From positions 1 to 61,720 of the IMG/VR virus record IMGVR_UViG_3300035438_000178: a stretch of DNA of 61,720 nucleotides. One strand, written 5' to 3'. This stretch comes from a virus (Duplodnaviria > Caudoviricetes). This document shows positions 29,108 through 50,597 of this stretch, in pieces (position 1 is the stretch's first letter; each line of letters opens with the position of its first letter). A program made the translations under genes and the position numbers. The notes beneath the pieces are model-generated. The model searched no databases and had not been told where the DNA came from. It saw only the letters and a list, made by a program, of their open reading frames with translations.

Positions 29108-29575
29108 TCATTTATAGGGAATATAAGAGGTTTTTCCTTTAGCATCACGGACAGCACGGAGAATCTGTTTACGGTTAGCACCTTTACGGTATCCAACGTG
29201 TACCCAGTCGGGGTTAGTAGAAGTACCAAACTCCCAAATCAGTTGGTCAAAGTCAAGGTTGTCCTTAACAAAGTCAAAGACCATCTTATTAGTCACTCCA
29301 GTACCCTTATCATCTTGGTCGAGGTCAAGAGCACGACCGTTGCAATGGTCAGAGGATGCACTACCACCGATAGCCTTATTCAAAGCAGCAGAGCGATAGG
29401 CAGAGGAAATGAAGATAGGTTTTGCAAAATGCTCCCGTATAGGAGTGTGAACAGCTTCACAGGTAACCTTGAGGTTCTCCAAGTGCTCAGGAGTAGGCAT
29501 ATTACTGATGCCTTTGCGTTTAGCGTTATCTGAGGAGGTAACCTCGGAGATAGCTACATACTTACTGACTTGCAT
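29108..29575 (-). CDS. Endolysin, peptidase M15 family
   Basis: 155 aa; ISSAYRS..LNKAIGG..SDHCNGRALDL, FDQLIWEF, WVHVGY. Confidence 0.88.
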   Translation of the reverse strand: MQVSKYVAISEVTSSDNAKRKGISNMPTPEHLENLKVTCEAVHTPIREHFAKPIFISSAYRSAALNKAIGGSASSDHCNGRALDLDQDDKGTGVTNKMVFDFVKDNLDFDQLIWEFGTSTNPDWVHVGYRKGANRKQILRAVRDAKGKTSYIPYK

Positions 29576-30007
29576 TTGCAGCGTGTTTTACGTTTGGTTT
29601 TAAGAATACAAGAATCTGTTTCCTTTCATTACAAGACAAATGTAACAACTTTCCAAATACAGAAAATCAGCACATACAGAATTTTGAACAATTGTGGATA
29701 AGGATTTGGAAATGTCATTTTTTTTTCGTAACTTCGCTTTGTCTTTAGACAGCTTTAGCATTGCAGCAATAACAATGTTATGTAAAGCAATGTATTCACA
29801 GAATCCCTTGCTTTTCCAAATCATAGCGTAAAACACGCTGCAAATACAACACAAACCATAACACGCTGAAGTCACAAACGTAAAGACGGCGTATTGCATT
29901 TATACATATAGGCTATTTCAATCCACCTTAGTGGTTGAATTAACAGATTCTATCTTCCTCAAAACCAATGGGGTAGCTGAACCACTTCAAGTTTTGCTTT
30001 AAATTGG

Positions 30008-30053
30008 GAGAAATGTATATGGTGCATAAAACATATGAGAAATGTATATGGTG
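30008..30053. repeat. 17-bp direct repeat GAGAAATGTATATGGTG x2
   Basis: Copies at 30008-30024 and 30037-30053 in the non-coding strand-switch region. Confidence 0.85.
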
Positions 30054-30451
30054 GGGATAATATATATATAGGGACGGTCCGTAGCGCGTACCCAAACGCA
30101 TCCGCGCACCCAAGCCCCCGCGCGCGCACGCAGAGTTAGAATAATATCTAGCCTTTTCTATAACTCCTAGTAAGAATATCTTAGCCTATTAGTTAGATAT
30201 CATAGTATTCTTTCTCTCCATCTAACCAATTGATTACTAGATACTAATGGTTTATTATCTCACTTAGTTCTTTAATTAAACCTTATATCTTTCTATCTAA
30301 CAAATAGTTAGAGTAAACAATCCCCTTCTTAGATATCTAACTAAGTATCTAATACAAAAACGGGCGAGGCGACGGCTCCAAAAAAGTAATAATTTATATT
30401 GTTCCAAAGGAACATATATATAAATTATTAAAAAAAAACATTTCAAAAAAC

Positions 30452-30483
30452 TTGACAACGGCATTTCCACCGCCATATCTTTG
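30452..30483 (+). promoter_or_regulatory. Early promoter P1 (TTGACA..TATCTTTG)
   Basis: Bacteroidota -33/-7 arrangement with upstream A-tract. Confidence 0.8.
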
Positions 30484-30549
30484 CATCGTCGCCGAGAGGA
30501 AAGCCCTCCACACACCGCGACTAATGAATAACTTAATGTAATAGTTATT

Positions 30550-30774
30550 ATGAGTAAGATTAAAAACAAATCTACAAAGAGTAATTACTCACCTCGTAAA
30601 ACTCCAAGTTTTACTAGTATCTACCAAGAGAATATCTATGTCTCTTATGCCTTCAAGAAGATTAAGGCTAGGTTTAACTCTAAGTGTTATGCTACCGGTA
30701 CTTTGATTCCTGTTGGAGCAGAGATGTGGTATGATTATGCTAACAAAACTTGTTTTGCTATGGACTCTATTTGA
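30550..30774 (+). CDS. Early hypothetical protein
   Basis: 74 aa; IKARFNSKCYATG.LIPVG; first gene after P1. Confidence 0.6.
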   Translation: MSKIKNKSTKSNYSPRKTPSFTSIYQENIYVSYAFKKIKARFNSKCYATGTLIPVGAEMWYDYANKTCFAMDSI

Positions 30775-30826
30775 GTTCATAGCACTGAGTAAGAAAAAAA
30801 AAAAAAAAAATTAAAAACTATTAGTT

Positions 30827-31027
30827 ATGAAAACTATTTCTCAAGCAACTTACAATTCAATCTACAATAAGTACCTAAAGTTAGTTAACTACTACGATGA
30901 GTTACTTTGGAATGATGGTTACGATGATGATGGTGAAACTACTGAGGATTGGAGTTATATCATTAGTATGACTAATGAGTTCAATGAGAGGTATCATCTG
31001 ATGATGAAAGGTGTAAAGGTTAACTGA
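30827..31027 (+). CDS. Early hypothetical acidic/aromatic protein
   Basis: 66 aa; TTAGTTATG start context; its TGA stop lies inside the ribozyme core. Confidence 0.65.
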   Translation: MKTISQATYNSIYNKYLKLVNYYDELLWNDGYDDDGETTEDWSYIISMTNEFNERYHLMMKGVKVN

Positions 31028-31073
31028 TGAGGCTTTAATAGCCGAAACATATCCTAAGGGATATGTCTTAACC
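31018..31073 (+). ncRNA. Hammerhead ribozyme (type I topology)
   Basis: GGTTAA | CTGATGA | GGCT-TTAAT-AGCC | GAAA | CATATCC-TAAG-GGATATG | TC | TTAACC; all core nucleotides and three stems present; cleavage predicted after C31067. Confidence 0.93.
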
Positions 31074-31086
31074 AAAATGTTTAGTT

Positions 31087-31233
31087 ATGCATAAAGTAAT
31101 GTGTTTCATCCTGATGTTAGCAGGTACATTCCTGTTCGCTGAGTGTCTACGTCGTGGATTCGTAGGCTTTGGGCTGATAGGTGCTATGTCTGCTGTAGCC
31201 GGATTGTACTCCTACATTCAGGAGGGAAAATAA
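31087..31233 (+). CDS. Small two-TM membrane protein (not in ORF track)
   Basis: MHKVMCFILMLAGTFLFAECLRRGFVGFGLIGAMSAVAGLYSYIQEGK*; TTAGTTATG start context. Confidence 0.65.
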   Translation: MHKVMCFILMLAGTFLFAECLRRGFVGFGLIGAMSAVAGLYSYIQEGK

Positions 31234-31289
31234 ATTTATACTACGAAGTAGTATATACGGCAAGAACTAAAATTTTTTTTGCCAAACAC

Positions 31290-31321
31290 TTGACAAAGGG
31301 GTTTCGATTGTTATACCTTTG
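31290..31321 (+). promoter_or_regulatory. Early promoter P2 (TTGACA..TACCTTTG)
   Basis: Shares CCAAACACTTGACAA and TGTTATACCTTTGCA with P3. Confidence 0.85.
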
Positions 31322-31381
31322 CAGAGCCAACGGCGAAAGGGTCACGCCGAATGTTTGACCCGAATGTACAAAAATTGTGTT

Positions 31382-32761
31382 ATGAAAAATGTTTTCGATT
31401 ACGAGGGTCAACAACACCCTATGTCTGAGTGTGTAGTGCTACACGAAATGAGTGACTACGGCGGTGAATATATTCACCGAGATGTGGCTGTAGCCTTCCG
31501 TCTTGATGGGGAAACGCAATACTTTACTCCGGAGGAGGCTGTCTACGACATCTACGACACCCCTGTGATGCTGAGTGACGCGGTGCTCTTAGACAGGGGC
31601 AACCACGGAGGCGAGTGGTGCGCTATGAACGAGGCTGTCCTCACTGAGGATGCCGGATGGGTTCACGTTTCCGATACTTACTACGTAAGTTTGAGCGACG
31701 GAAACACCTACTTCTATATGTGGAACTTACGAAATGTTACCGAAGGTACTGTCGCCGAAGGGTGGTACAGCGAGGACGATTGTGTCTACGTAGAGGATGC
31801 AGATGCCTACTACCACGTAGATGATGAGGGTGTGTGGTACACCTTCGATGAGCAAAATTCCGAGTATGTTTTAATCCAAAATGATAACCAAAACCCCAAT
31901 GTTATGAGCACAATGTCTACACCTACCCGCGGCATCAACACCGGCATCCGTGTCGAGGACTACCACCAAGGCCGGATGGGTTCACCTGTCCGTGAGTGGA
32001 AAGCGGGCGAGGCAAAGTTTACCATCGGCTTCGAGGTTGAAAAAGAGGACACCACACCTACGAATGTGTGGAGCGTGATTGACACCCGTGTCTACGGATG
32101 GGTTCGAGAGCGCGACGGCTCACTGAACCATATGACCGGATACGAATTGGTCTCACCTACCTACGACCTGTTCGGGTCTGAGCTCGACACCGACCTTGCA
32201 AGCGAGTGCATCACCGAGCACGTCAACGGCGCCTACAGCGAGCGCTGCGGGGGGCACATCAACTTCGGCATCAAGGGTCTGACCGGATTGCAGGTCTACG
32301 AACAGATGAAGGGCTTCACACCCCTGTTGCTGTCCCTTTACAAGGGACGTTTGCTGAATCGCTACTGCAAAATTCGTCCGGACTACAAGGACGGCAGCAA
32401 GATGGGCGCTGTGCACGTCAAGCCGGGCTTCATCGAGTACCGAGTGCCGAGTGCCGTCAAGAGCACTGAAAATTTGCTGTGGCGCCGCGATTTGCTCCGC
32501 ATTGCCGCCGAGCACGCCGGAAAGGGTGCGGCCTACTTCACCCGGGCTGCGATGACCAAATCACACCCGCTGCACAAGCACTTGCGTAAGGTCTACGACG
32601 AGCGCACAATCGCACTGCGAGTGGGCTTTGCACTGTCGCTTGCCGAGCGTATGGAGGGCAAAAAATTCTCCAACTACGTTACCTTCACCGAGGTAACCGA
32701 CATCATCGACGTCCACGCCGCGGATGTTGAGCGCCACCTACAACAGGCTGCACACCTGTAA
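31382..32761 (+). CDS. Putative amidoligase (COOH-NH2 ligase-like), copy 1, with acidic/aromatic repeat N-domain
   Basis: FTIGFEVEKE, RERDGSL, GYELVSP, CGGHINF, IEYRV motifs; start taken at ATG 31382 downstream of P2. Confidence 0.75.
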   Translation: MKNVFDYEGQQHPMSECVVLHEMSDYGGEYIHRDVAVAFRLDGETQYFTPEEAVYDIYDTPVMLSDAVLLDRGNHGGEWCAMNEAVLTEDAGWVHVSDTYYVSLSDGNTYFYMWNLRNVTEGTVAEGWYSEDDCVYVEDADAYYHVDDEGVWYTFDEQNSEYVLIQNDNQNPNVMSTMSTPTRGINTGIRVEDYHQGRMGSPVREWKAGEAKFTIGFEVEKEDTTPTNVWSVIDTRVYGWVRERDGSLNHMTGYELVSPTYDLFGSELDTDLASECITEHVNGAYSERCGGHINFGIKGLTGLQVYEQMKGFTPLLLSLYKGRLLNRYCKIRPDYKDGSKMGAVHVKPGFIEYRVPSAVKSTENLLWRRDLLRIAAEHAGKGAAYFTRAAMTKSHPLHKHLRKVYDERTIALRVGFALSLAERMEGKKFSNYVTFTEVTDIIDVHAADVERHLQQAAHL

Positions 32762-32917
32762 GGTACACGTAGGCAAGGGGGTGTGTGTAGATATACACAC
32801 CCCTACACCTACACACGTAGACATACATATCTACACATATATGCACGTCTACATACGTAGACATACACACATACACACCTACACCTACACATAAACCCAC
32901 AAACACCTACACCTATG
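32760..32917 (+). repeat. RYCTAC/GTAGRY-(AC)n low-complexity array with GGGGTGTG/CACACCCC hairpin
   Basis: Intergenic; repeated ACACCTAC, GTAGAC, ATCTAC; ends ACACCTACACCTATG. Confidence 0.85.
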
Positions 32918-33511
32918 GCTAACATTTGCAACAACTTCGTAACGATTTCCGGCAAGCCTGAGAATATCCGAGCTGCCTACAATTTTCTCCTCGACTACAC
33001 ACCCGACCACGGCGTGATGTACGACCGACTGCGCGACCTACACCTACGTAAGGGCTACACCCTGACCCCTGAGGACAACGGCGCCGCCTCACCTGTGTGG
33101 TGGGAGTACAACGTAGAGTACACAATCGTCGACCTTGACAACAAGGTAGATGTAATTTCTGTCGTCGGTGGTTCAAAGGGAATGCCGCCTGTGGATTTCC
33201 TACGCCTACTGAGCGAGCACTTTCACGTAGATGTGAGCGCTAAGTACGAGGACTACGCCGGATTCATCGGCGGATACTTCAAGGCTGTCAACGGTGACCC
33301 TATTGTCGACGATTTCCTGAGCCTACTTGAGTACCTGTGGCGCTACGATGACGAGCGCATTGCCTTCTACGATGAACTGCATTCGCTTTGTAAGTGGAAC
33401 GACCACGGCTTCGAGGATGTTAAACGACTGCATCTGAGTGAGTTTAAAACACCACTGACCGATGATGAATTGAGAATCATTGGAAAGTATTTCGAGGATG
33501 ATGCCTCGTAG
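32915..33511 (+). CDS. YubB/Api92 ferredoxin-like (DUF1281-like) protein
   Basis: 198 aa; MANICNNFVTISG N-terminus, PP..F...LSEHF...AKYED..GFIG. Confidence 0.6.
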   Translation: MANICNNFVTISGKPENIRAAYNFLLDYTPDHGVMYDRLRDLHLRKGYTLTPEDNGAASPVWWEYNVEYTIVDLDNKVDVISVVGGSKGMPPVDFLRLLSEHFHVDVSAKYEDYAGFIGGYFKAVNGDPIVDDFLSLLEYLWRYDDERIAFYDELHSLCKWNDHGFEDVKRLHLSEFKTPLTDDELRIIGKYFEDDAS

Positions 33512-33640
33512 GTACACACCTACACCTACGTACATACACGTAGGCACGCACACCTACACCTACGTACACATACATACGTAGGTACACACACCTACCTACA
33601 CACACATATACCTACACCTACAAACACCTACACACCTATG
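33508..33640 (+). repeat. Array of GTAGGY-(AC)n-ACCTAC units
   Basis: Three GTAGG(T/C)..ACCTAC inverted units plus further ACCTAC copies, ending ACACCTATG. Confidence 0.85.
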
Positions 33641-33802
33641 AGAAACTTACCACACTACCTTGCTTCGACCTTCACCGGATTGTCTACGTTCGCTTTTGTT
33701 TTCGCTGTGCTACACAATGAGTACACACTTGCGATTGTATCTACACCGCTTGCGATTGTATCCACACTTACACTTGCTAGCCTCGATTGGAAAAAATCAT
33801 AA
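33638..33802 (+). CDS. Small two-TM membrane protein (not in ORF track)
   Basis: MRNLPHYLASTFTGLSTFAFVFAVLHNEYTLAIVSTPLAIVSTLTLASLDWKKS*. Confidence 0.6.
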   Translation: MRNLPHYLASTFTGLSTFAFVFAVLHNEYTLAIVSTPLAIVSTLTLASLDWKKS

Positions 33803-33846
33803 CGTAGTTATGTATAGCAACAACAAAAAAATACTTCACCAAACAC

Positions 33847-33878
33847 TTGACAAGGGCATACCGAATGTTATACCTTTG
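33847..33878 (+). promoter_or_regulatory. Early promoter P3 (TTGACA..TACCTTTG)
   Basis: Near copy of P2; followed by CATCGTC as in P1. Confidence 0.85.
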
Positions 33879-33985
33879 CATCGTCAAACGACAAATGTTC
33901 AACCTAATACCTGATGCTTATGTAATGTGACCTGTTCAACAAATGCTTTAATAAAAATGTATAACTTATTTAAATTCAATAGCCT

Positions 33986-34882
33986 ATGTGTATAGCAATT
34001 CTTAACAAGGGAAACGCGGTTTCCAAAAAACATCTGAAAAATTCTTGGGACTCCAACTTCAACGGCGCGGGTCTTATGTGGGTACAAGGTGGTGCACTGC
34101 ACACCTACAAGAAAGCCAACAAGCACAAATCAACTGACTTCACCGAGTTCTACGACACCTACCTACAAGCGTATGACAATCGTGACGAGAACACACCTGT
34201 GGGTATTCACTTCCGCATTGCAACGCACGGCAAGACCGACGAGTTCCTTCACCCATTCAAGGTAGGTGAGAACATCGGCCTTATGCACAACGGCATCCTA
34301 AGCGGGCTAGGTACTGAGGCGTACAGCGACACGGCTAAACTTGCCGACCTGTTGTCCGGACTGCCGGAGGTTATGCTCCAAAATGTCGACGAGTTATTAT
34401 CCAATAACTTCATCTACACGGCGCTTGCATCTATGTGTGGTACAGGTAATAAACTAATCTTTATCGACAACACCGGTGACTACGAGATTGTCAACGAGAA
34501 AGCCGGACATTGGGCTGACGATAATTGGTACTCCAACGACTCCTACAAGAACAGCGGTGTGCGCTACTACGGAGACAAGGCTGTCTACGATTGGGGAAAG
34601 GGATGGGGAAAAGCGTGGGAAAAGCCTTACACTGCATCTACACCTACGTTAGGGGCATCTGTAGGTAAGCCCTTGCCTGCATTGCCTAAGGCATCTGTGC
34701 CCTTTGTTGATGCGGATGTTGATGAGAGCATCATCGATGATACGGATACCAAATCATTGGGTACTTTTTGGTGTAGCAAATGTTACAGCACTGAGTACGT
34801 TACCGATGCCTGTGAGTGCGACCGATGCGGAACCTACAACTACCGGGCTGAGACCGCTGTGTGTGGGTTACTGTACTCGTAA
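33986..34882 (+). CDS. Class II (Ntn) glutamine amidotransferase with C-terminal Cys-rich (Zn-ribbon-like) tail
   Basis: MC N-terminal nucleophile, HFRIATHG, HPF, LMHNG, SDT, WYSN; C-terminal CSKC..CECDRC. Confidence 0.85.
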   Translation: MCIAILNKGNAVSKKHLKNSWDSNFNGAGLMWVQGGALHTYKKANKHKSTDFTEFYDTYLQAYDNRDENTPVGIHFRIATHGKTDEFLHPFKVGENIGLMHNGILSGLGTEAYSDTAKLADLLSGLPEVMLQNVDELLSNNFIYTALASMCGTGNKLIFIDNTGDYEIVNEKAGHWADDNWYSNDSYKNSGVRYYGDKAVYDWGKGWGKAWEKPYTASTPTLGASVGKPLPALPKASVPFVDADVDESIIDDTDTKSLGTFWCSKCYSTEYVTDACECDRCGTYNYRAETAVCGLLYS

Positions 34883-34935
34883 TGTTCAACCTATTGTTTA
34901 ATCGAATTGTCTAACTATTTAATCCTTAATGTATT

Positions 34936-36576
34936 ATGATTCACAATGTTAACTTCCTAGCTCCCAACTTCGGCCTCCCGGAGGACTTGTTCAACTACTA
35001 TACAGATGAGTGCCTTCGGCCTTACCTACGTAACCTTAACACACGTTATCAAGCATCTAGCAATGGTACTTATGTTCCGTTACTGCCGCCTATTCATACG
35101 GCAAAAAATTTCTCAGTAAATAGTGATATGAGGTCTCAGTACCAACGTACAGGTGGTACTCTATACAAGCAAGCAGATATGACGGCTGATGCCTATGCGT
35201 ATGGCTCAAATGTGCGAGCTTCATTTAAGGGACAATCATCGCCTTTGCATTCTTCTATGTGGTGTTGGAGCGTATATGACTTGATGATTCCGTGGACTAA
35301 ATTCATAAGCCACTTCAATAATCTTGGTGAGTCAGTTATTTTTACAGCGGGCAGAGAAGACAATCGCATATACCTACCTATCGCCTCAAAGTTCCCGCAA
35401 TTTGATAGTAGGCATTGCATTGCAAGCCCTAGTGTATCTGAGGGTGTTGAGCGACTGAATGGGTGGGGATACATCTACAAAAATCTTAATGCTCCTCGTG
35501 GTGTATTGAGTATGTTTAACGAGCAATACCTACGTGACATTGGAGGGTTCGATGAGGCAACAGCTGAGGATATTCTTTCTATGGCGAATGCTACTGCCTT
35601 CTTCGTAGAGAATAATTCTATATCCTGTTGCCTTTCCTCATCTATGCCTGAGGAATACATTGATGACAGCGAGGATGTGTTCGATATGGACAGCCCTGAT
35701 ATGCAAGCACGTCTAGGTATACCACAAGCGGAAGAAACGCCTCCTGTTCTTGAAGTGCGTTCCTACAAGGGATTCAATCGGGTTCACAAGGCAAGCAAGA
35801 AGGCTAAGTTCACTATCGGATTCGAGGTGGAGAAAGAAGATTCATCTGTCCGCCGTTCTGTTGATGCCGACCTGTTGTACAACACTACACGGTGGGCTAA
35901 GGAGCGCGATGGTTCGCTGAGTAGTTACTCCGGTTACGAATTGGTCTCACCTACGTATGACCTGTACACCAATGACTTGGACAACGACCTGAAGAACAGC
36001 GAGGACTTACGTAACCACATAGATGCACAATACAACACAGGCTCTTGCGGTGGGCACATACATCTAGGCGCCACAGGTGTGACGGGTAAACGATTGTTCC
36101 AAATGATGGGGCCGTGGATTCCGCTTATCTACTCACTGTATGTGGGGCGTATCAACGGACGGCACTGCAAGGTGAAGAAGAATGAGAATATCATTCGTGA
36201 CGATGAGAAATACCAATCGGTTCGCATCTTTGACAATCGCGTCGAGTTACGTATTATAAGCGCTGTGCCTGATGTAGACACGCTGTTGTGGCGCCGCGAT
36301 TTGCTTCGTCTTATTTGTGACAACTTGAGTGCTACTCCGTTCACTATCCTTGCGATGATGCACGACAAGCGTTCGAAACTACACAAGCACTTGCGTAAGC
36401 AATACAGCGCTACCAACTTGGAGAAGAAAATCCAATTGTATGTGTACTTCGCTAACCAATTGTTGAGTTCCGACTACACACGATTGGAGAAACGCATTCC
36501 TGAGTGGGAGCGTATGTTCACATCTGAGCAGCGTTCACACCTCCGTGCTCACGGTTTCTCTAACTATGTATCTTAG
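34936..36576 (+). CDS. Putative amidoligase (COOH-NH2 ligase-like), copy 2
   Basis: FTIGFEVEKE, KERDGSL, GYELVSPTYDL, CGGHIHL, VELRI; paralogue of 31382..32761 with a different N-domain. Confidence 0.75.
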   Translation: MIHNVNFLAPNFGLPEDLFNYYTDECLRPYLRNLNTRYQASSNGTYVPLLPPIHTAKNFSVNSDMRSQYQRTGGTLYKQADMTADAYAYGSNVRASFKGQSSPLHSSMWCWSVYDLMIPWTKFISHFNNLGESVIFTAGREDNRIYLPIASKFPQFDSRHCIASPSVSEGVERLNGWGYIYKNLNAPRGVLSMFNEQYLRDIGGFDEATAEDILSMANATAFFVENNSISCCLSSSMPEEYIDDSEDVFDMDSPDMQARLGIPQAEETPPVLEVRSYKGFNRVHKASKKAKFTIGFEVEKEDSSVRRSVDADLLYNTTRWAKERDGSLSSYSGYELVSPTYDLYTNDLDNDLKNSEDLRNHIDAQYNTGSCGGHIHLGATGVTGKRLFQMMGPWIPLIYSLYVGRINGRHCKVKKNENIIRDDEKYQSVRIFDNRVELRIISAVPDVDTLLWRRDLLRLICDNLSATPFTILAMMHDKRSKLHKHLRKQYSATNLEKKIQLYVYFANQLLSSDYTRLEKRIPEWERMFTSEQRSHLRAHGFSNYVS

Positions 36577-36627
36577 TGGTGGGGGTGTGTTCACCCCTAC
36601 CTCTACATACATAACACACCTACACCT

Positions 36628-36807
36628 ATGACACTACCGGAAGATGCGGCTAAGAACTATGCCGCTTGGGTAATGGAGCAACACAATCCTGAATACGAAA
36701 TCGAGATGCTGTTCCTCCGCTTATCGGACAGACAACAGGTATATGCCTATGCCGATATGCTTGAGAGTACGAACACAATCGACGACGAACTATTCGAGGA
36801 TGATTGA
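36628..36807 (+). CDS. Small acidic protein (not in ORF track)
   Basis: MTLPEDAAKNYAAWVMEQHNPEYEIEMLFLRLSDRQQVYAYADMLESTNTIDDELFEDD*; preceded by ACACCTACACCTATG. Confidence 0.65.
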   Translation: MTLPEDAAKNYAAWVMEQHNPEYEIEMLFLRLSDRQQVYAYADMLESTNTIDDELFEDD

Positions 36808-36842
36808 ATTAAAACTTTAACTAACTAATACAACTTACTGAT

Positions 36843-37085
36843 ATGCAAGAAATTAAACGCACTTACCGATTCTCTAAAGATTACATTCACGCTAAGACAC
36901 AATCCCTTAGTACCGTTAGCTGTGACGTCGAGGTGGACTACGATACAAAAGCCTACTTCATCGACCACGGTGCAGCGCACATTGCAGGTGGTTCCGGACA
37001 CGACTACAACCTACCTAAGATGATTGCAACGGCTGAGATGCACATTGAGGTACTAGCATTCTTACGCGATGAGTTTTCTAAATAA
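36843..37085 (+). CDS. Hypothetical protein
   Basis: 80 aa with AT-rich leader. Confidence 0.6.
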   Translation: MQEIKRTYRFSKDYIHAKTQSLSTVSCDVEVDYDTKAYFIDHGAAHIAGGSGHDYNLPKMIATAEMHIEVLAFLRDEFSK

Positions 37086-37196
37086 GATTCTCATCTACCT
37101 ATGCCTGATACCTACACGTACTGTCCGGGTATCTAGGACTACATACCTACACATATATAGAAACGGACGGACAAAAACTAAATTCAATACAACACT

Positions 37197-37661
37197 ATGA
37201 ACAGAAAATTCTACAAATTCCTCTACGCTCTCAAGCGTGCAATGTTTGCAACACTGAAATTTATTTCACGACCTAAGAAGATTGGTGACAAGCCTTTCAC
37301 GATGCGCTTCTACAAGGACGAGGGCTATTGGTTCGCTGACGTACCACAATGGAAAGGACCTAAGGCTAACCTGATGATGGTTGCCGGAGCTGATATTTTC
37401 CTTGATAAACTTGGAGAAGAACAGAAACGTCGCTTCTTTCGACGTGCCGATGACGTGACGCTCACTATATCTACGAGCACTAAGTATATGCCTAAGAGCT
37501 ACCGCACACTCAAGATGATTGAGAAATGCGAGTTCGATGGTGCGTACTATAAGTACGGATTCAAGGGTAATGAGATTTGTTGGCTGTGCGATGTCACCGC
37601 TTGGGTAATCGGATACTTCCCTAAAGAAATCTATTATTCATTCGATGAGGCAGTTATGTAA
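37197..37661 (+). CDS. DUF6717-like protein
   Basis: FYKDEGYWFADVPQW.GPKANLMMVAGADIFLD and WLCDVT..V.GYFPKEIY. Confidence 0.6.
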   Translation: MNRKFYKFLYALKRAMFATLKFISRPKKIGDKPFTMRFYKDEGYWFADVPQWKGPKANLMMVAGADIFLDKLGEEQKRRFFRRADDVTLTISTSTKYMPKSYRTLKMIEKCEFDGAYYKYGFKGNEICWLCDVTAWVIGYFPKEIYYSFDEAVM

Positions 37662-37686
37662 CCTCACTTAAAGTTTTTATTTAGTA

Positions 37687-37717
37687 TTGACTTTATCAAT
37701 TATTTCTTGTAACTTCG
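37687..37717 (+). promoter_or_regulatory. Promoter P4 (TTGACT..TAACTTCG)
   Basis: Near-consensus Bacteroidota promoter, intergenic. Confidence 0.65.
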
Positions 37718-37830
37718 CATAGTGCAAGCAGCAGCTGAAAGGGGGGCGCTCACACGCCTCCCCCAAAGCAGCACAATACAAAGGTGGTCTTGGGCATATA
37801 GTATTTAATTCAATTCAAAAAATGTGTTAA

Positions 37831-37977
37831 ATGAATGATTCAATTAAAGCACTGTTAGAGTTTAAGAATCAACAGATTGAGGCACTTCAACGTGAGTTAG
37901 AACGCGTCAACAACTTAAACTTATTGTTTAATCAAAATGTAAAACGTGAACAGAATGAGACAGATGATTGTAAGTAA
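37831..37977 (+). CDS. Small coiled-coil protein (not in ORF track)
   Basis: MNDSIKALLEFKNQQIEALQRELERVNNLNLLFNQNVKREQNETDDCK*. Confidence 0.5.
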   Translation: MNDSIKALLEFKNQQIEALQRELERVNNLNLLFNQNVKREQNETDDCK

Positions 37978-38236
37978 AATTGTTCAAGATGCCTACGTAG
38001 AGTTACGTGAATCGTGGGACAGGTACATACCTAGTGATGTACAGGTACACCTAATGGACTACGAGGTAGGTGTGCGCCGGATGGAATACATCATCGAGAA
38101 TGGTATACGTAGAGGTATGGTAGGCGATGCGCTGTTGTTCTCTACACGTAGGTATACGTTAGCGCTGTTGGATGATTTCTCATACATCTACGATAAGTAT
38201 AATCTCGTATTGCATCGAGTTAACATTACACATTGA
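37946..38236 (+). CDS. Hypothetical protein
   Basis: 96 aa ORF within the operon. Confidence 0.5.
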   Translation: MNRMRQMIVSKIVQDAYVELRESWDRYIPSDVQVHLMDYEVGVRRMEYIIENGIRRGMVGDALLFSTRRYTLALLDDFSYIYDKYNLVLHRVNITH

Positions 38237-38237
38237 T

Positions 38238-38798
38238 ATGCGTTTGAATTTATATATGTATGACAAAGGCTGTTTACAATTCAAGAGATTGACAGTTAAG
38301 CAGTTATCGGTTTCAATTGCAGTATTACTTTCAACTACAGCGTGTGTTACGTTTGGGTTGATAGATAAGAATACACACATCTACGAGGGTGCGTTAAACG
38401 TCTACCTACATAAGCCCGCGTTCACTGAGGACAAATTGGTACAGCAGATGGGTGGTATGAATCTCAGGTTTCCCCACATTGCATTGGCTCAAGCAAAACT
38501 TGAAAGCTCAAGGTATAAGTCACTGATTTTCAAGGAGAACAATAATCTATTTGGAATGAAAGAGGCTAAGCAGAGGATTACCTTAGCGAAGGGTACACGT
38601 AGGAATCACGCCTACTACGACACGTGGGAAGACAGCGTACTTGACTACGCCTTTTGGTGTGCTACCTACGCGAACAAATGCAAGACGGAGCAACAGTTCT
38701 ACACGCTCCTATCTACCTACGCGAAAGACCCTATGTACGAATCAAAGCTCCGCAAAATCGTGGAGAAGGAAGGATTAAAAGAAAAGTTTAACAATTAA
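38238..38798 (+). CDS. GH73 glucosaminidase-domain protein with N-terminal TM segment
   Basis: IALAQAKLES, ENNNLFGMK, YDTWEDSVLDY, YAKDPMY..KL; start taken at ATG 38238. Confidence 0.8.
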   Translation: MRLNLYMYDKGCLQFKRLTVKQLSVSIAVLLSTTACVTFGLIDKNTHIYEGALNVYLHKPAFTEDKLVQQMGGMNLRFPHIALAQAKLESSRYKSLIFKENNNLFGMKEAKQRITLAKGTRRNHAYYDTWEDSVLDYAFWCATYANKCKTEQQFYTLLSTYAKDPMYESKLRKIVEKEGLKEKFNN

Positions 38799-38808
38799 AA
38801 AGGAAGAG

Positions 38809-39036
38809 ATGGGACGTTCGTTATCCTCACTTGAGGGCTTTATGATAGTAAATGGTAAAGAAGGAGAGCAGTTCTACACACGAAAAGATTCGCGTTTCGT
38901 AACTACGCTGTGCAACTACTACAAGCGTAGGGTGAACACGGCTAAGTGCGTAGTCACGTATGAAGATGGGACTAATATCCGGAGTGAGTATGTTGTTTTA
39001 GTAACGCTTGGTAAGTTTAAGAAAGACGAGAAATGA
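38809..39036 (+). CDS. Hypothetical protein
   Basis: 75 aa; ATGA coupling to the next gene. Confidence 0.55.
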   Translation: MGRSLSSLEGFMIVNGKEGEQFYTRKDSRFVTTLCNYYKRRVNTAKCVVTYEDGTNIRSEYVVLVTLGKFKKDEK

Positions 39037-39263
39037 AACCGGAGACAGCAAATCGAACAGCAGTAGAGTGGCTTGAGTATGAGTTTGTAAAGCTTGAAAG
39101 CACGGTAGGTGTGCATAGCAGTATGTACCATCTAATTGAGGAAGCCAAAACAAAGGAGAAACTACAAATCAGTGAAGCGTACTACAATGCGTTTATCAAT
39201 GCCACCAAAGGGATTGAACTTGACTTTGAGGACTACTACAACGAAACCTTTAACACCAAATGA
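39033..39263 (+). CDS. Conserved Bacteroidota-phage hypothetical protein
   Basis: TAVEWL..AK.KEK.QI.EAY..EDYYNETF pattern. Confidence 0.6.
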   Translation: MKPETANRTAVEWLEYEFVKLESTVGVHSSMYHLIEEAKTKEKLQISEAYYNAFINATKGIELDFEDYYNETFNTK

Positions 39264-39877
39264 ATAAGGTTGAATTAGTGGGCTACTATGGCTCCGACGC
39301 TACACACGCACAATCGGCGTGGACATCTACGAGCAGGAAACTGACCAAAGACAAGGAAGAAAGGATGCCTGACCTACTGAATATGCTAGCCTCAGAAGGT
39401 CATCACACACCGTTTGAAAAGTCAACGCTTCACTTTCTCGTAGACGTAGACCAAGCTACGCACATACACCTACTCAAGCATCGTATAGGCGTGAGTATCA
39501 ACGGGGAATCGGCGCGTTACAAGGAGCTGAAAGAGGACAAGTATTACTTGCCTGAGGATTGGAATAAGTATTGGGAAACAGAACTTGAGATTTTCACACG
39601 GCTTTCCAATACACTTTACCACAGATGCCTTGAGCAACTTACTCCTGTTCTTGGACGCAAGAGAGCTAAGGAATCCGCACGTTTCTTTAAGACGATGAAT
39701 TCTCAAATCACAATGGACATCTCGTTCAATTGGCGTTCATTTGCACACTTCCTACACCTACGTAACAGCGAACACGCTCAAGTAGAGGTGCGAGAGGTTG
39801 CTAAGCAGATGCTTGAATTGGTGAAGAACATTGAAGGAAATCCGTTTAAGTACACAATCAAAGCGTTTAACCTATGA
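39260..39877 (+). CDS. thyX: FAD-dependent thymidylate synthase
   Basis: GHHTPFE, HLLKHRIGVSINGESARY, ESARF, NWRSFAHFLHLR..HAQ.EVRE. Confidence 0.92.
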   Translation: MNKVELVGYYGSDATHAQSAWTSTSRKLTKDKEERMPDLLNMLASEGHHTPFEKSTLHFLVDVDQATHIHLLKHRIGVSINGESARYKELKEDKYYLPEDWNKYWETELEIFTRLSNTLYHRCLEQLTPVLGRKRAKESARFFKTMNSQITMDISFNWRSFAHFLHLRNSEHAQVEVREVAKQMLELVKNIEGNPFKYTIKAFNL

Positions 39878-40005
39878 GAGAGCAGTTTATTCGTATCGCT
39901 ATGGCTAGGCTCAAGAAAGATTATCCTTTCTATCCGCAGAGGATTGCTGTTGCCGCAAAGATGTGGTCAAGGTTTAAGTCACGTAGGTGTGAGGAGGCCG
40001 ATTAA
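39874..40005 (+). CDS. Small basic protein (not in ORF track)
   Basis: MREQFIRIAMARLKKDYPFYPQRIAVAAKMWSRFKSRRCEEAD*; ATGA overlap with thyX stop. Confidence 0.55.
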   Translation: MREQFIRIAMARLKKDYPFYPQRIAVAAKMWSRFKSRRCEEAD

Positions 40006-40267
40006 CTTCTTAGTTGTCGAGGTTGAATACATAAAGAAGAAGATACTTTATGTGAAGAAGATGGAAATCATAAGCACTTATGGTAATCTGTCTGAGATTG
40101 AACGATTCGACAGAAAGGTATACACCGGATTCGCAGGATTGAATAAAGAGATATTCAACAACGGAATCATAGGACACATCAGGATAAGAAGAATACTATC
40201 TAAAAAAATCATTGGATACACCAACTATGACACAGGAGAAAGTAAGACCAAGCCATTACGTTCGTAG
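39989..40267 (+). CDS. Hypothetical protein
   Basis: In-frame GTG at 39989 within ORF 39944..40267. Confidence 0.45.
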   Translation: MRRPINFLVVEVEYIKKKILYVKKMEIISTYGNLSEIERFDRKVYTGFAGLNKEIFNNGIIGHIRIRRILSKKIIGYTNYDTGESKTKPLRS

Positions 40268-40457
40268 TGGTAAGGATGTATGGGAGATGATGATTGACGT
40301 CTACGGAAAGGAGGCATTCATCAACTTCTGTGAAATCAACGCATTCAAGTACCGGATGCGAGCAGGTCTGAAAGAGACAGAGAGTGTTCTAGAAGACATT
40401 GAAAAAGCAAAATGGTACGAAAACAAAGCAAATGAACTAAGACACGATGGAGAATAA
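40227..40457 (+). CDS. DUF3310 (SaV-like) protein
   Basis: VRPSHY, FCEINAFKYRMRAGLK, EDIEKAKWY. Confidence 0.8.
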   Translation: MTQEKVRPSHYVRSGKDVWEMMIDVYGKEAFINFCEINAFKYRMRAGLKETESVLEDIEKAKWYENKANELRHDGE

Positions 40458-40761
40458 TCAATCTCGAATAGCAACCAAATTAGTAATCCTACATCAGTGT
40501 CAATTGGAATTGCTTGATGACCTACAGGGGACTACGCTATATAGGCAAGACATAAAATTCTTAACCAATCAACTAATCAAAAAACTAGAAGAGCACCTTG
40601 ACAAATACTTAAAGACCTTAGATGACGACGAGAAAGAGTTCTCGTTCTTATCAATCCAAAGAGGGATGCAAAAGCTGTTAGACCTTTCATTGGAAGAACT
40701 TCACGAGTTAGACCCAACAATAAAAACTGAATTAAATGGAACGAAAAAAGAAACTGACTAA
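40447..40761 (+). CDS. Hypothetical helical protein
   Basis: 104 aa within the operon. Confidence 0.55.
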   Translation: MENNQSRIATKLVILHQCQLELLDDLQGTTLYRQDIKFLTNQLIKKLEEHLDKYLKTLDDDEKEFSFLSIQRGMQKLLDLSLEELHELDPTIKTELNGTKKETD

Positions 40762-40954
40762 GGTAACATTCTTTGCCTGTGACAAGTCCCTACGCACACT
40801 TCTGAATGAGACCGTAAGCGTAGAATATGTGAGTGACCTAATCAGCACCTGTAATAAATACTCAGAAATGATTGAGCCTCAGGATATTACATTAACAATC
40901 GAAGATGACCGATTGACAGTGATATTCTTACCAAAACTTTCTTTTGCAGATTGA
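40736..40954 (+). CDS. Hypothetical protein
   Basis: 72 aa within the operon. Confidence 0.5.
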   Translation: MERKKKLTKVTFFACDKSLRTLLNETVSVEYVSDLISTCNKYSEMIEPQDITLTIEDDRLTVIFLPKLSFAD

Positions 40955-41007
40955 TTGTTATCCACAAGTTTTTAACTACATTTGTCAACAAATAAATTCA
41001 ATTCAAT

Positions 41008-41700
41008 ATGGCAAGAACACCAAGACAGACCGCTACAGCGGAGTCACCTACGCAAGTAGAGCCACACGTAGACACATACGAATGGACCTCGGCAGAGAAA
41101 CTTTTACGAGTTCAAGCAGAGTTAAAAGCACCAAAGGGTCAATACAATAGTTTCGGTAAGTATGCATACCGGAATCAAGAAGACATCCTTGAGGCTGTAA
41201 AGCCTTTGCTGATGAAATACAACCTACCTGTGCGCGTATCTGACAGCATCTACGAGGGTAATGGGTGGATGGCTATCTGTGCGACTGTGATTGTAGGTAC
41301 AGGCACTGATTGCGTAGAGGTGAAGGCTTATGCAGGTGTTGATTTCAATCGCAAGGGTATGGACATTGCACAAGCCTTTGGCGCATCATCGTCCTACGCT
41401 CGTAAGTACGCACTGAATGGTATGTTCCTTATCGATGATACCAAAGATGCTGATGCAACTAATATGCACGGGAAAGGCCAAGCGCTTCCTCCAAGCCCAG
41501 TAAAGCAAGTAACGCCTACTACTCCAGCGCCTACACCTACTCCAGCGCCTGTAAGCGCAGAGGACAAGTACGCTCAGGTATGGAATTACTTGAAGGCAGC
41601 AAAGCCCGAAGACCGTGAATCATTGACCAAGAAGGCAATCGAGAAGTATGGTTCTATTTTCACACAAGAGCAAATCACAGAGTTATGGAACTTGCAATAA
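41008..41700 (+). CDS. ERF-family single-strand annealing protein
   Basis: VQAELKAPKGQYNSFGKYAYRNQEDILEAVKPLL, GASSSYARKYALNGMFLIDD.KDAD; TACATTTG box upstream. Confidence 0.9.
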   Translation: MARTPRQTATAESPTQVEPHVDTYEWTSAEKLLRVQAELKAPKGQYNSFGKYAYRNQEDILEAVKPLLMKYNLPVRVSDSIYEGNGWMAICATVIVGTGTDCVEVKAYAGVDFNRKGMDIAQAFGASSSYARKYALNGMFLIDDTKDADATNMHGKGQALPPSPVKQVTPTTPAPTPTPAPVSAEDKYAQVWNYLKAAKPEDRESLTKKAIEKYGSIFTQEQITELWNLQ

Positions 41701-42446: not shown

Positions 42447-42988
42447 AAGACGTACACGTAACATTCGACATTGAGACACTAGGGACAGATTTTAATTCAC
42501 CTATTGTTCAACTTGCGGCAGTTAAATTCAAGGACTATAAAATCATTGACGAGTTCAATGAGTATATTGAAATTGATAGTTTAACTAAACGTGACTACGT
42601 TCCTGATATTAAAACAGTTATGTGGTGGATGAGTCAGGAACATCACGTAATGAAATCTGTCTTTTTTTCTGAGCCAAGAGTCAAGATTGGTACAGTTCTT
42701 AACCAATTCTACTATTGGATGAGCCGTGAGTATATCGAGAATGTTTGGTGTCATTCCACATTCGATTATGGAATCCTAAAGACCACCTATGCTAAAGAAT
42801 ATATGAAGTGCCCAATCAGTCACCAAAATATTCGAGACATAAGGACTTTAGAGTCATTGACCGATGGCGGAAGAAAGAGGGCTATTTTAAAACAGAAGCA
42901 TCATACAGTCCACGATGCACTAACCGATTGTAAAATTCAGGCAGAATACATTGCCTACGCATTATCTTTAATCTCTAACAAAAACTAA
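42443..42988 (+). CDS. DEDDh 3'-5' exonuclease
   Basis: FDIETLG, FDYGIL, RDIRTL, HDALTDC. Confidence 0.85.
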   Translation: MKDVHVTFDIETLGTDFNSPIVQLAAVKFKDYKIIDEFNEYIEIDSLTKRDYVPDIKTVMWWMSQEHHVMKSVFFSEPRVKIGTVLNQFYYWMSREYIENVWCHSTFDYGILKTTYAKEYMKCPISHQNIRDIRTLESLTDGGRKRAILKQKHHTVHDALTDCKIQAEYIAYALSLISNKN

Positions 42989-42989
42989 A

Positions 42990-43382: not shown

Positions 43383-43464
43383 TTTAGTTAAGTCATCATT
43401 AGGTTTCCTTTGTGGTTTGGAATGGGGGTTGGAGGTTGTCAAGATGACGCCTCCTACCTTCCAA

Positions 43465-46204: not shown

Positions 46205-46215
46205 TAACTTTGTAT

Positions 46216-50588: not shown

Positions 50589-50597
50589 AGTACAAAT

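What the first reader, a model, noticed from the sequence alone, without database searches (positions are those of the whole stretch)
29303..41495. About 12 kb apparently free of CCAG/CTGG, coinciding with the early genes
Seen (by-eye scan): no CCAG or CTGG between about 29303 and the first hits near 41497-41530, although CCAG is very common in the late region and dozens would be expected. CCGG is frequent here instead. The word stays sparse to about 47 kb. Inference: region-specific avoidance suggests this segment enters the cell first and must escape a restriction-type system recognising a CCAG-containing site until early anti-defence genes act. This would be analogous to the site-depleted first-transfer DNA of T5. 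It also implies an anti-restriction gene among the small early ORFs.
Basis: partly seen in the sequence, partly recalled or inferred. Interest (0 to 1): 0.7.

Follow-up and report, generated by a model that had tools for sequence, protein, structure and literature searches.

The report
Restriction-site-free leading early region of phage
A 12-kb block of early genes in this lake-water phage completely lacks the four-letter word CCAG/CTGG, and related phages purge other restriction-enzyme words from the same block, which fits DNA that enters the cell first and must survive host restriction enzymes unaided.

Summary
CCAG/CTGG occurs 299 times in the 61,720-bp phage genome but never between 29,298 and 41,497 (about 40-43 expected). 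Both orientations are missing, and codon usage does not explain it.

CCAG behaves as a restriction-type word. Two relatives lack it genome-wide (0 of about 250 and 230 expected) and a GenBank relative keeps 4 of 288. CCAG-specific methyltransferases are documented (PMC10689673).

Under a strict test, 8 of 13 whole relatives have a zero zone over the same early genes, 13 zones in all, using CCAG, AGCT, CTAG or TCGA. Only 3 zones lie elsewhere, and 78 simulated genomes gave 1. The upstream edge is sharp and recovery downstream is gradual.

Two relatives that co-diverged to about 78% identity both kept the zone clean, while permuted substitutions would have created 20 CCAG and 11 AGCT sites. Selection is therefore ongoing, which argues against a transferred module.

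This matches leading-region site avoidance known from T5 and T7-like phages. First entry and an anti-restriction gene remain inferred: no termini could be mapped and no known anti-restriction family was found. I rate it a new member of a known kind, with an unusually clean, family-wide signature.

The parts
29299..41496 (.). Zone with zero CCAG/CTGG (12,198 bp). It runs from 280 bp inside the first leftward late gene, through the non-coding control region and all early genes, to 490 bp inside erf.
41497..48900 (.). Partly depleted continuation covering the recombination/replication genes (Erf, exonuclease, primase-helicase, glycosyltransferase, methyltransferase-like). It has 10 sites against 36.2 in shuffles, evenly sparse.
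   Evidence: annotation.
48901..61720 (.). Mildly depleted leftward block that includes the giant gene: 53 sites against 74.6 in shuffles. The rest of the late region (1-29298) is not depleted (235 against 228).
29576..30549 (.). About 1 kb of non-coding region between the divergent late and early blocks. It holds a 29-bp tandem duplication (30008-30065), a GC-rich element and AT-rich repeats. The element at about 30055-30121 (GGGGATAATATATATA ... CCCAAGCCCCC) is shared with G005, and in weaker form with G001. It is the candidate site of the genome end or packaging signal (inferred).
30452..30483 (+). Early promoter-like element P1 (TTGACA-N18-TATCTTTG).
   Evidence: the pattern TTGAC-N17-22-TAnnTTTG occurs only 3 times in the genome, all on + within 3.4 kb. 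One search shows 45-nt repeat D1. The Bacteroidota -7 consensus TAnnTTTG is recalled, not tested.
31290..31321 (+). Early promoter-like element P2, just upstream of the 459-aa gene.
33847..33878 (+). Early promoter-like element P3, upstream of the 298-aa and 546-aa genes.
30550..30774 (+). First early ORF (74 aa, basic). A homologue is the first early gene in G005.
31382..32761 (+). Conserved early protein 1 (459 aa), amidoligase-like. It is present in all 10 whole relatives G001-G010.
   Evidence: Atlas: nearest clusters viral, some with PF12224; structure rows meet the bar for Amidoligase_2 at TM 0.40-0.45.
33986..34882 (+). Conserved early protein 2 (298 aa). Some homologues are named 'predicted glutamine amidotransferase' by their source. 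It is present in all 10 whole relatives.
34936..36576 (+). Conserved early protein 3 (546 aa). The C-terminal domain (about 277-510) has a glutamine-synthetase-like carboxylate-amine ligase fold. It is present in all 10 whole relatives and was the query for all related loci.
37197..37661 (+). DUF6717 protein.
38172..38798 (+). Glucosaminidase-domain protein.
39260..39877 (+). ThyX thymidylate synthase.
41008..41700 (+). Erf single-strand annealing protein. The zone ends inside it. A TAnnTTTG element at 40977 precedes it, so it probably starts the next transcription unit. In G005 the AGCT-free zone ends at the erf homologue as well.
29108..29575 (-). Peptidase M15 (endolysin-type), the first gene of the leftward late block. 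The last CCAG before the zone (29298) lies in it.
50598..60149 (-). Giant 3183-aa protein with no family match. Its Elemovirus counterpart is annotated as a structural protein.

Best explanation
The zone is the leading, early-expressed end of a podovirus genome related to Elemovirus and, through one tail-protein domain, to crAss-type phages of Flavobacteriia-type hosts. It is under its own extra layer of purifying selection against host restriction-enzyme target words. Shown: CCAG/CTGG, in either orientation, is removed from the first 12 kb of the rightward early block. Selection relaxes gradually further downstream and is absent in the late structural genes. In relatives the same block is cleared of CCAG, AGCT, CTAG or TCGA. 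Inferred: the genome has a fixed end in the non-coding region at about 29.6-30.5 kb and enters the cell from there, rightward and slowly or in stages. Entry is probably coupled to host-RNA-polymerase transcription from three strong promoters at 30.45, 31.29 and 33.85 kb, as in T7. This first DNA is naked in a restriction-competent cell, so any site in it is lethal. Products of the early genes then neutralise or outrun those enzymes, so later-entering DNA can carry about 300 CCAG sites. Words absent from the whole genome (GATC, CATG, CCWGG and several 6-mers) would belong to enzymes that the early function cannot neutralise.
For: (1) The absence is real and not compositional: 0 against 39.6 (Markov) and 42.8 +/- 5 (synonymous-codon shuffles, minimum 32 of 300). 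Both orientations are zero, which points to duplex DNA recognition rather than an mRNA signal. (2) CCAG is a restriction-type word. G003 has 0 of 252 expected and G004 0 of 230 genome-wide. GenBank MW202828.1 has 4 of 288, and all 4 lie in the late block. A CCAG-specific methyltransferase was confirmed experimentally in H. pylori A45, and a CCAG motif was reported in T. phaeum (PMC10689673, passages). (3) The same place carries other words. With a strict criterion (uniform-null P times 136 words < 0.01, and local expectation > 10), 13 zero zones cover the conserved early genes in 8 of 13 whole genomes: G000 CCAG; G001 and G002 CCAG + AGCT; G005 AGCT + CTAG; G006 and G007 CTAG + TCGA; G009 TCGA; G010 CTAG. 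Three zones lie elsewhere, and 78 third-order Markov simulated genomes gave 1 hit. Of the 51 IMG/VR loci, 21 showed such a zone over the marker gene under a looser criterion. (4) Selection is ongoing. G001 and G002 are co-linear at 73-81% nt identity along the whole genome. In the first 8 kb (6,041 aligned columns, 1,341 mismatches) they have 0 and 3 CCAG/CTGG against 19.8 +/- 3.9 in permuted-substitution simulations (0 of 300 as low). They have 0 and 0 AGCT against 11.1 +/- 3.2 (0 of 300). Control words match the simulation (CGCG 19 against 19.2; CCTG/CAGG 40 against 41.4), and CCAG matches it downstream (44 against 43.0; 10 against 9.6; 119 against 109.8). (5) The pattern is polar. For the 13 strict zones, obs/exp is 0.90 (303/336) in the 5 kb upstream. 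Downstream of the zone end it is 0.55 (122/220), 0.68 and 0.75 in successive 5-kb steps, and downstream is lower than upstream in 12 of 13. In the window the series is 0, 0.28, 0.71, 1.03. (6) The layout fits. The zone starts at the divergent control region and holds the only three TTGAC-N17-22-TAnnTTTG elements of the genome, all pointing rightward. It ends where the erf/replication unit starts, both in the window and in G005. (7) There is precedent. T5 and other tequintaviruses are restricted only through sites in the first-step-transfer DNA (PMC10644984 passages). Murciavirus (Autographiviridae) escapes a Type I system only when the motif is absent from the first-injected region (PMC12455610, abstract and discussion).
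Against: Entry order is not shown. The contig has no terminal repeat. The 123-127-bp 'terminal repeats' of relatives look like assembly overlaps. All 20 runs that hold the phage are kept as contigs, so no molecule ends could be read, and contig depths gave no hint of a long repeated end. No known anti-restriction family was found: 0 of 10 small early ORFs hit PHROGs, and there was no Pfam hit of that kind. The pattern is not universal. Five of 13 whole genomes show no strict zone (G003, G004, G008, MW202828.1, elemoA). In the cultured relative elemoA, GATC is more depleted in the late than in the early block. G010 carries 5 CTAG/TCGA sites in the first 3.7 kb, which is clean in its 89-95%-identical relative G006. 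CGCG-free stretches lie in late regions of G002 and G009, so module history also shapes word maps; both of those gaps cross the ends of linear contigs. No phage RNA polymerase or terminator marking an entry stop was identified.
Confidence: 0.68

Rival explanations
1. Mosaic history. The early module was recently acquired from a phage lineage that avoids CCAG genome-wide (like G003, G004 or MW202828.1). The zone would then be inherited, not selected in place.
For: Such CCAG-free lineages exist. Early regions are gene-content-variable: only 3 of about 20 zone ORFs are shared with all relatives. Late-limited gaps (CGCG in G002 and G009) and the reversed GATC pattern in elemoA show that modules can differ in word content.
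Against: The window's three conserved early proteins are closest to G005 (42/46/57% identity), as are TerL (75%) and primase-helicase (68%). They are not closest to the CCAG-free G003/G004 (29-42%). At these divergences an unselected gap would have refilled. G001 and G002 diverged together by about 22% and still kept the zone clean, with 20 and 11 sites expected. Zones fall on the early block 13 times against 3 elsewhere. The edges are asymmetric: sharp upstream, graded downstream. Sites in 41.5-48.9 kb are evenly sparse rather than gene-by-gene patchy.
Confidence: 0.1
2. Region-specific vulnerability without ordered entry. The whole genome enters at once, but only cuts in the early genes are fatal. 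Later regions would be rescued by the phage's Erf/exonuclease recombination, by co-injected protective virion proteins such as the giant protein, or by a modification that spares the early DNA.
For: The phage encodes Erf and an exonuclease just downstream of the zone. It also encodes a giant virion-type protein whose nearest Atlas clusters carry 'polyvalent protein' domains, a lead only at score 0.85. A glycosyltransferase and a methyltransferase-like gene sit at 46.8-48.5 kb.
Against: About 300 CCAG sites lie outside the zone, so a 4-bp cutter would shred that DNA beyond recombinational rescue. No DNA methyltransferase or base-modification pathway was recognised. The graded decline with distance from one edge is what a time-of-exposure process predicts, and it is not expected from an all-or-none need for intact early genes.
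Confidence: 0.12
3. A non-restriction constraint. The word would be avoided because of transcription, mRNA processing, codon or amino-acid usage, or a mutational bias peculiar to highly expressed early genes.
For: The zone coincides with one transcriptional class and with strong promoters.
Against: Synonymous-codon shuffles restore about 43 sites. Both orientations are absent on a one-strand coding block. The neighbouring word CCTG/CAGG is not depleted. Relatives purge different words, mostly classic restriction palindromes, from the same genes. The same word is purged genome-wide in other relatives.
Confidence: 0.03

Closest known systems
First-step-transfer (FST) DNA of phage T5 and other tequintaviruses
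   Same: A defined leading segment must be free of restriction sites, while the rest of the genome carries them and is protected after pre-early gene expression. Sites placed in the segment make the phage sensitive (PMC10644984 passages, citing Davison and Brunel 1979). The protecting function is unknown there too.
   Different: T5's segment is a roughly 10-kb terminal repeat with a discrete injection stop, and the phage is a siphovirus of Enterobacteria. Here no terminal repeat or stop signal was found and the downstream edge is graded. The words are 4-bp and differ between relatives. The phage is a podovirus of the Elemovirus/crAss-related type.
Transcription-coupled entry of T7 and the leading-region rule in Murciavirus (Autographiviridae)
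   Same: Strong host-type promoters lie near the leading end, and early genes point in the direction of entry. Sensitivity to restriction is decided by motifs in the first-injected region (PMC12455610 abstract and discussion). The graded relaxation with distance fits slow, continuous entry.
   Different: No phage RNA polymerase, Ocr-like first gene or early terminator was recognised. The published case concerns one Type I motif, whereas here total loss of 4-bp words is seen over 6-15 kb. T7's promoter-driven entry is recalled knowledge and was not tested here.
Genome-wide restriction-site avoidance in phages
   Same: The same selective agent is at work. This genome also shows the classic form: GATC 0 of 224, CATG 0 of 218, CCWGG 0 of 53, plus AGTACT, AACGTT, CTGCAG, GGTACC.
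   Different: The finding is a second, sub-genomic layer confined to the leading block. According to PMC12455610 (discussion), earlier bioinformatic surveys did not take site location into account.
Leading region of conjugative plasmids
   Same: The first-transferred DNA is depleted in restriction targets and rich in anti-defence genes. This is stated in the PMC12455610 discussion; the primary papers were not read.
   Different: It enters as single-stranded DNA by conjugation, which is a different element type.

Membership tests
Leading-region (first-entry) restriction-site avoidance, T5 FST / T7-like type | A contiguous segment is devoid of a restriction target word that is common in the rest of the genome, beyond chance and composition | tested here: met
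   0 against 39.6-42.8 expected in 12.2 kb, with 299 sites elsewhere.
Leading-region (first-entry) restriction-site avoidance, T5 FST / T7-like type | The avoided word is the target of a restriction-type system | tested here: met
   Relatives have genome-wide zero or near-zero counts. CCAG-specific methyltransferases are described (PMC10689673). Relatives' zones use AGCT, CTAG and TCGA. No host or its enzymes could be examined.
Leading-region (first-entry) restriction-site avoidance, T5 FST / T7-like type | The avoidance is maintained by selection on that segment only | tested here: met
   Permuted-substitution test on G001/G002 with control words and control regions.
Leading-region (first-entry) restriction-site avoidance, T5 FST / T7-like type | The segment lies at the fixed physical end of virion DNA that enters first | not testable with these tools
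   Only contigs of public runs were available, so no read ends could be seen. There is indirect support only: the sharp upstream edge at the non-coding control region and the polarity.
Leading-region (first-entry) restriction-site avoidance, T5 FST / T7-like type | Early products protect the later-entering DNA (anti-restriction) | not testable with these tools
   No known anti-restriction family was found among the early ORFs. The idea is inferred from the 299 tolerated sites.
T5-type two-step transfer specifically | The leading segment is a long terminal repeat followed by an injection-stop region | tested here: inconclusive
   No terminal repeat in the contig. No depth doubling in contig depths, which are a poor measure. 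No non-coding stop region at 41.5 kb. In several genomes the downstream edge is graded.
T7-type transcription-coupled entry specifically | Strong host promoters lie near the leading end, co-directional with the early genes | tested here: met
   Three TTGACA-N18-TAnnTTTG elements at 30452, 31290 and 33847, all on +, and the only ones in the genome. This is a match to a recalled consensus; function was not tested.
T7-type transcription-coupled entry specifically | A phage-encoded RNA polymerase takes over entry and transcription | tested here: inconclusive
   No RNA polymerase domain was found in the proteins scanned. The 3183-aa protein is unassigned.
Amidoligase_2 (PF12224) / glutamine-synthetase-fold carboxylate-amine ligases (for the 546-aa early protein) | Pfam match above the curated threshold | tested here: not met
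   17.2 bits against a cut-off of 22, E 0.0049.
Amidoligase_2 (PF12224) / glutamine-synthetase-fold carboxylate-amine ligases (for the 546-aa early protein) | Glutamine-synthetase-like catalytic fold | tested here: inconclusive
   In the AlphaFold model the C-domain block means are mostly pLDDT 77-98. Foldseek top hits are all glutamine synthetases, GmaS, YbdK and Dop (E 5e-5 to 1e-3), but TM is only 0.2-0.33. Invariant acidic, Cys-Gly-Gly-His and Arg columns were found in 35 homologues.

The most novel reading that the evidence does not exclude
The graded, one-directional loss of restriction words would be a sequence-encoded record of slow, host-transcription-driven genome internalisation in a widespread group of Bacteroidota podoviruses related to Elemovirus and crAss-type phages. 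Such entry has never been shown in that phylum. The promoter-driven, universally conserved early trio (two glutamine-synthetase-fold amidoligases plus a glutamine-amidotransferase-like protein) would be a broad anti-restriction device. One possible mode of action is covalent tagging or amidation that disables unrelated Type II nucleases. If so, word maps alone could give injection polarity, the length of the first-entered DNA and the host's restriction repertoire for uncultured phages.
Probability: 0.1. Interest if true: 0.85.

Novelty: new member of a known kind. Interest (0 to 1): 0.55.

Why it matters
Leading-region site avoidance has been shown experimentally in only a few model phages (T5 relatives, and one T7-like genus in 2025). 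Surveys of restriction-site avoidance have mostly ignored where the sites lie. This family shows the effect with unusual clarity. Whole 4-bp words are removed from 6-15 kb, different words are removed in different relatives, selection is demonstrably ongoing, and there is a polarity. The signature therefore offers a purely computational way to infer three things for uncultured phages: which end enters first, roughly how much DNA is exposed before protection sets in, and which restriction specificities (including the non-palindromic CCAG) matter in the hosts. It also singles out a conserved early enzyme trio of unknown role as a candidate worth testing.

Tried and rejected
Chance and composition. 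These were rejected by Markov expectations, synonymous-codon shuffles and a uniform-placement null.

An over-lenient criterion of my own. My first zone count used 'local Markov expectation > 12' and gave 20 early zones against 4-5 elsewhere. Third-order Markov simulations gave 36 such 'zones' in 66 simulated genomes, mostly for words that are rare genome-wide. I replaced it with the stricter test (1 hit in 78 simulations). That dropped G003 GATC, G004 CTAG/GGCC, G005 CCGG, G008 CTAG, G009 GGCC, G010 TCGA and G001 CGCG. The pooled profiles include those weaker zones; one search repeats the flank test on the 13 strict ones.

Terminus mapping. The look-up of sequencing runs found 20 lake-water runs holding 26000-35999, all kept as contigs. 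Read laying on 21500-41499 with 4 of the 24 listed runs (X10, X13, X17, X20) showed no molecule ends. Contig depths showed no doubling over the zone, but that is weak evidence.

Population test in the window's own lineage. Only 40 of 206 variant positions were printed. Of the 28 that lie in the zone, none creates CCAG/CTGG, but only about 0.7 would be expected (2.5% of possible substitutions create a site), so the test has no power.

Closer relatives of the window. The IMG/VR and metagenome scans returned nothing closer than 58%. Megablast against the phage collection found nothing.

Metagenome loci. I examined 23 of the 80 returned loci, chosen for length. Many gaps there run to a locus end or concern words with 1-2 sites, so I use them only as illustration. 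In L161, AGCT, CCGG and GATC gaps share edges at 4.2-4.5 and 12.3-13.8 kb.

A cultured model. Elemovirus elemoA has the same layout but no early zone. The paper search for 'elemoA' gave only two unrelated virome papers.

Packaging type from TerL. There was no Pfam or PDB sequence match.

The giant protein as a virion RNA polymerase. No family or PDB match was found. The Atlas gave only sub-threshold leads to polyvalent-protein domains.

Terminator or stop signal at the zone end. None was convincing.

Known anti-restriction proteins. None was found.

Supplements of papers were not consulted, so tables in PMC12455610 and PMC10644984 that list motif positions may bear on how general the rule is. 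I saw no paper describing this phage group's zone. The searches behind that statement were made, so it holds only for those terms.

Full report
WHAT WAS CHECKED

The window is a complete 61,720-bp virus record. CCAG occurs 207 times and CTGG 92 times, but neither occurs between 29,298 and 41,497. That 12,199-bp gap is far longer than the next longest (2,568 bp).

A second-order Markov model expects 39.6 sites inside it. Shuffling synonymous codons within each gene gives 42.8 +/- 5.0, never fewer than 32 in 300 shuffles. A uniform-placement null, corrected for 136 words, gives log10 P = -23.9.

The word stays sparse to about 48.9 kb (10 sites against 36.2). It is mildly low in 48.9-61.7 kb (53 against 74.6) and normal in 1-29.3 kb (235 against 228). 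CCGG is enriched in the zone (32 in the zone against 61 elsewhere).

WHAT THE REGION IS

Late genes run leftward from about 29.6 kb. They include an M15 peptidase, the large terminase subunit, the portal and virion proteins, one of which has a crAss-type muzzle domain.

A non-coding stretch of about 1 kb follows (29,576-30,549). Rightward genes then run to 48.5 kb. The first 11 kb hold small unknown ORFs, three larger conserved proteins, DUF6717, a glucosaminidase and ThyX. After that come erf, an exonuclease, a primase-helicase, a glycosyltransferase and a methyltransferase-like gene.

A second leftward block (48.9-61.5 kb) holds a 3183-aa protein with no family match.

The only three matches in the genome to TTGAC-N17-22-TAnnTTTG lie at 30,452, 31,290 and 33,847, all pointing rightward.

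The nearest cultured relatives by terminase are the Elemovirus podophages of Flavobacterium (41% identity). They share the divergent layout and the giant structural gene.

IS CCAG A RESTRICTION-TYPE WORD?

Yes, by three lines of evidence. Both orientations are missing from a block that codes on one strand. Two whole relatives have none at all (0 against 252 and 230 expected), and GenBank MW202828.1 keeps 4 of 288, all in its late block. A CCAG-specific methyltransferase has been confirmed in H. pylori A45, and a CCAG motif was seen in T. phaeum (PMC10689673, passages read).

The genome also shows classic genome-wide avoidance: GATC 0 of 224, CATG 0 of 218, CCWGG 0 of 53, and several 6-mers.

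IS THE PLACE SPECIAL?

I fetched 51 related IMG/VR loci with the 546-aa early protein. Of these, 21 show a stretch of more than 4 kb over the homologous gene that lacks AGCT, CTAG, TCGA or CCAG. Several of these loci are near-duplicates of each other.

I then took ten whole relatives and two GenBank genomes. My first criterion proved too lenient, giving 36 'zones' in 66 simulated genomes.

With the strict criterion (1 hit in 78 simulated genomes), 13 zero zones cover the conserved early genes in 8 of 13 genomes. Three lie elsewhere: CGCG in G002 and G009, and CTAG in G009, all crossing the ends of linear contigs. Five genomes have none, including the cultured elemoA, where GATC is if anything more depleted in the late block.

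INHERITED OR SELECTED?

G001 and G002 are co-linear and 73-81% identical along the whole genome. In the first 8 kb of the early block they differ at 1,341 of 6,041 aligned columns. Yet they carry 0 and 3 CCAG/CTGG and no AGCT.

I redistributed the same substitutions among the same columns. That gives 19.8 +/- 3.9 CCAG/CTGG and 11.1 +/- 3.2 AGCT, and 0 of 300 simulations were as low as observed for either word.

Control words behave as simulated, and so does CCAG in the three downstream regions. Selection against these words is therefore continuing, and only there.

The window's early proteins are closest to the same relative (G005) as its terminase and primase. They are not closest to the CCAG-free lineages. 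This argues against a recently imported module.

POLARITY

The upstream edge is a step and the downstream edge a slope. For the 13 strict zones, obs/exp is 0.90 in the 5 kb upstream. Downstream it is 0.55, 0.68 and 0.75 in successive 5-kb steps, and downstream is lower than upstream in 12 of 13.

In the window the series is 0, 0.28, 0.71, 1.03 going rightward and around the record. In the window and in G005 the zone ends at erf, which has its own promoter-like element.

HOW IT MOST LIKELY WORKS

Shown: a polar, region-limited purifying selection against restriction-type words, starting at the control region and running with early transcription.

Inferred: the genome has a fixed end in the non-coding region, where an element is shared between G000, G005 and, more weakly, G001. 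That end enters first, and the rest follows slowly. Early products then make the host's 4-bp cutters harmless.

The slope fits continuous, T7-like entry better than a T5-like stop, although some relatives end abruptly (G002 CCAG). Staged entry and leading-region sensitivity are established for T5 relatives and for Murciavirus (PMC10644984 passages; PMC12455610 abstract and discussion). The latter paper states that location had not been considered in earlier avoidance surveys.

CANDIDATES FOR THE EARLY FUNCTION

Only three zone genes are shared by all ten whole relatives:
- a 459-aa protein whose nearest Atlas clusters are viral amidoligase-like;
- a 298-aa protein, some of whose homologues are labelled predicted glutamine amidotransferase by their source;
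- the 546-aa protein, whose C-domain folds like glutamine synthetase, YbdK or Dop, although its Pfam score is below threshold.

P2 lies just upstream of the first of these genes, and P3 lies upstream of the other two.

Amidoligase-plus-amidotransferase pairs are a known early module of LUZ24-like, phiEco32 and OM43 phages, of unknown role (PMC3890496 and PMC10580990, passages). Nothing here shows that they act on restriction.

WHAT SPEAKS AGAINST THE READING, OR REMAINS OPEN

- No termini could be mapped.
- No anti-restriction family was found.
- The pattern is missing in 5 of 13 genomes.
- G010 has 5 sites where G006 has none.
- Late-limited CGCG gaps exist.

VERDICT

The restriction-driven, early-region-specific reading is well supported, while first entry and an anti-restriction gene are plausible inferences. 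The finding is a new member of a known kind, notable for the strength and breadth of the signature.

Noticed in passing
window, whole genome: Total genome-wide absence of GATC (0 of 224 expected), CATG (0 of 218) and CCWGG (0 of 53). Also absent are AGTACT, AACGTT, CTGCAG, GGTACC, CGTACG and the non-palindromic CCGCTC, and CCAAGG/CCTTGG is absent outside the zone. This is an unusually heavy restriction-avoidance load for a 62-kb phage.
   Followed up: partly
window 1048-6231 (-): The 1727-aa virion protein carries a Crassvirus muzzle-protein C-terminal domain (PF25729, E 1.8e-9). This links the roughly 60-kb Elemovirus-like group to crAss-type tail architecture.
   Followed up: no
window 50598-60149 (-): The 3183-aa protein has no Pfam, PHROG or PDB sequence match. 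Its Elemovirus counterpart (3694 aa) is annotated as a structural protein. The nearest named Atlas clusters carry 'large polyvalent protein' domains (score 0.85, a lead only), which hints at an injected multi-domain protein.
   Followed up: partly
G002 (L056-L058) 59622 to 12125 across the contig ends; G009 (L083-L086) 58958 to 8664; G001 32442-45332: CGCG-free stretches of 12-15 kb lie in late regions, the reverse of the main pattern. They are significant in G002 and G009 under the strict test and not in G001. Both significant ones cross the ends of linear contigs. They remain unexplained; module history or another selective agent are possible causes.
   Followed up: partly
G006 about 25.5-29.5 kb, G007 about 2.9-7.2 kb, G008 about 20.6-24.1 kb, G010 about 60.0 kb to 4.4 kb: A 1.4-5.7-kb late-region segment lacks many common non-palindromic 4-mers at once (AAGA, AAGC, ACTC, ATCC and others). 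Blastn shows internal repeats there. It is probably a repetitive or low-complexity structural gene and is unrelated to restriction.
   Followed up: no
window 30008-30065: A 29-bp tandem duplication (GAGAAATGTATATGGTG...) lies in the control region. One contig of run X20 lacks one copy, so the copy number varies in nature (table 4).
   Followed up: no
window 30055-30121; G005 (L066) about 12204-12270; G001 (L054) about 52413-52480: A conserved non-coding element (GGG-AT-rich run, then about 50 nt, then ACCCAAGCCCCC-like) lies between the late and early blocks. It is a candidate packaging or terminal sequence.
   Followed up: partly
L161 (metagenome locus) 4.2-13.8 kb: AGCT, CCGG and GATC gaps share nearly the same two edges (4242-4545 and 12312-13787), while CCAG and CTAG are almost absent from all 20.6 kb. 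This could be the clearest single example of a discrete first-entry segment.
   Followed up: partly
MW202828.1 (L171-L172): This public 60.9-kb podovirus genome from a spring has 4 CCAG/CTGG against 288 expected, all in the late block, and no GATC or CCGG. It also encodes a gene annotated as 'type I site specific restriction enzyme' in its replication block.
   Followed up: no
window 26000-35999: The phage, or near-identical strains, is held by 20 lake-water metagenome runs from 20 coded studies. Five of them may be the source sample.
   Followed up: no
G006 against G010 (L071-L074, L087-L090): These two genomes are 89-95% identical. G010 has 2 CTAG and 3 TCGA sites in the first 3.7 kb of the block that is site-free in G006. 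The sites lie near alignment breakpoints, so this may be a small recombinant import or relaxed selection in one host.
   Followed up: partly
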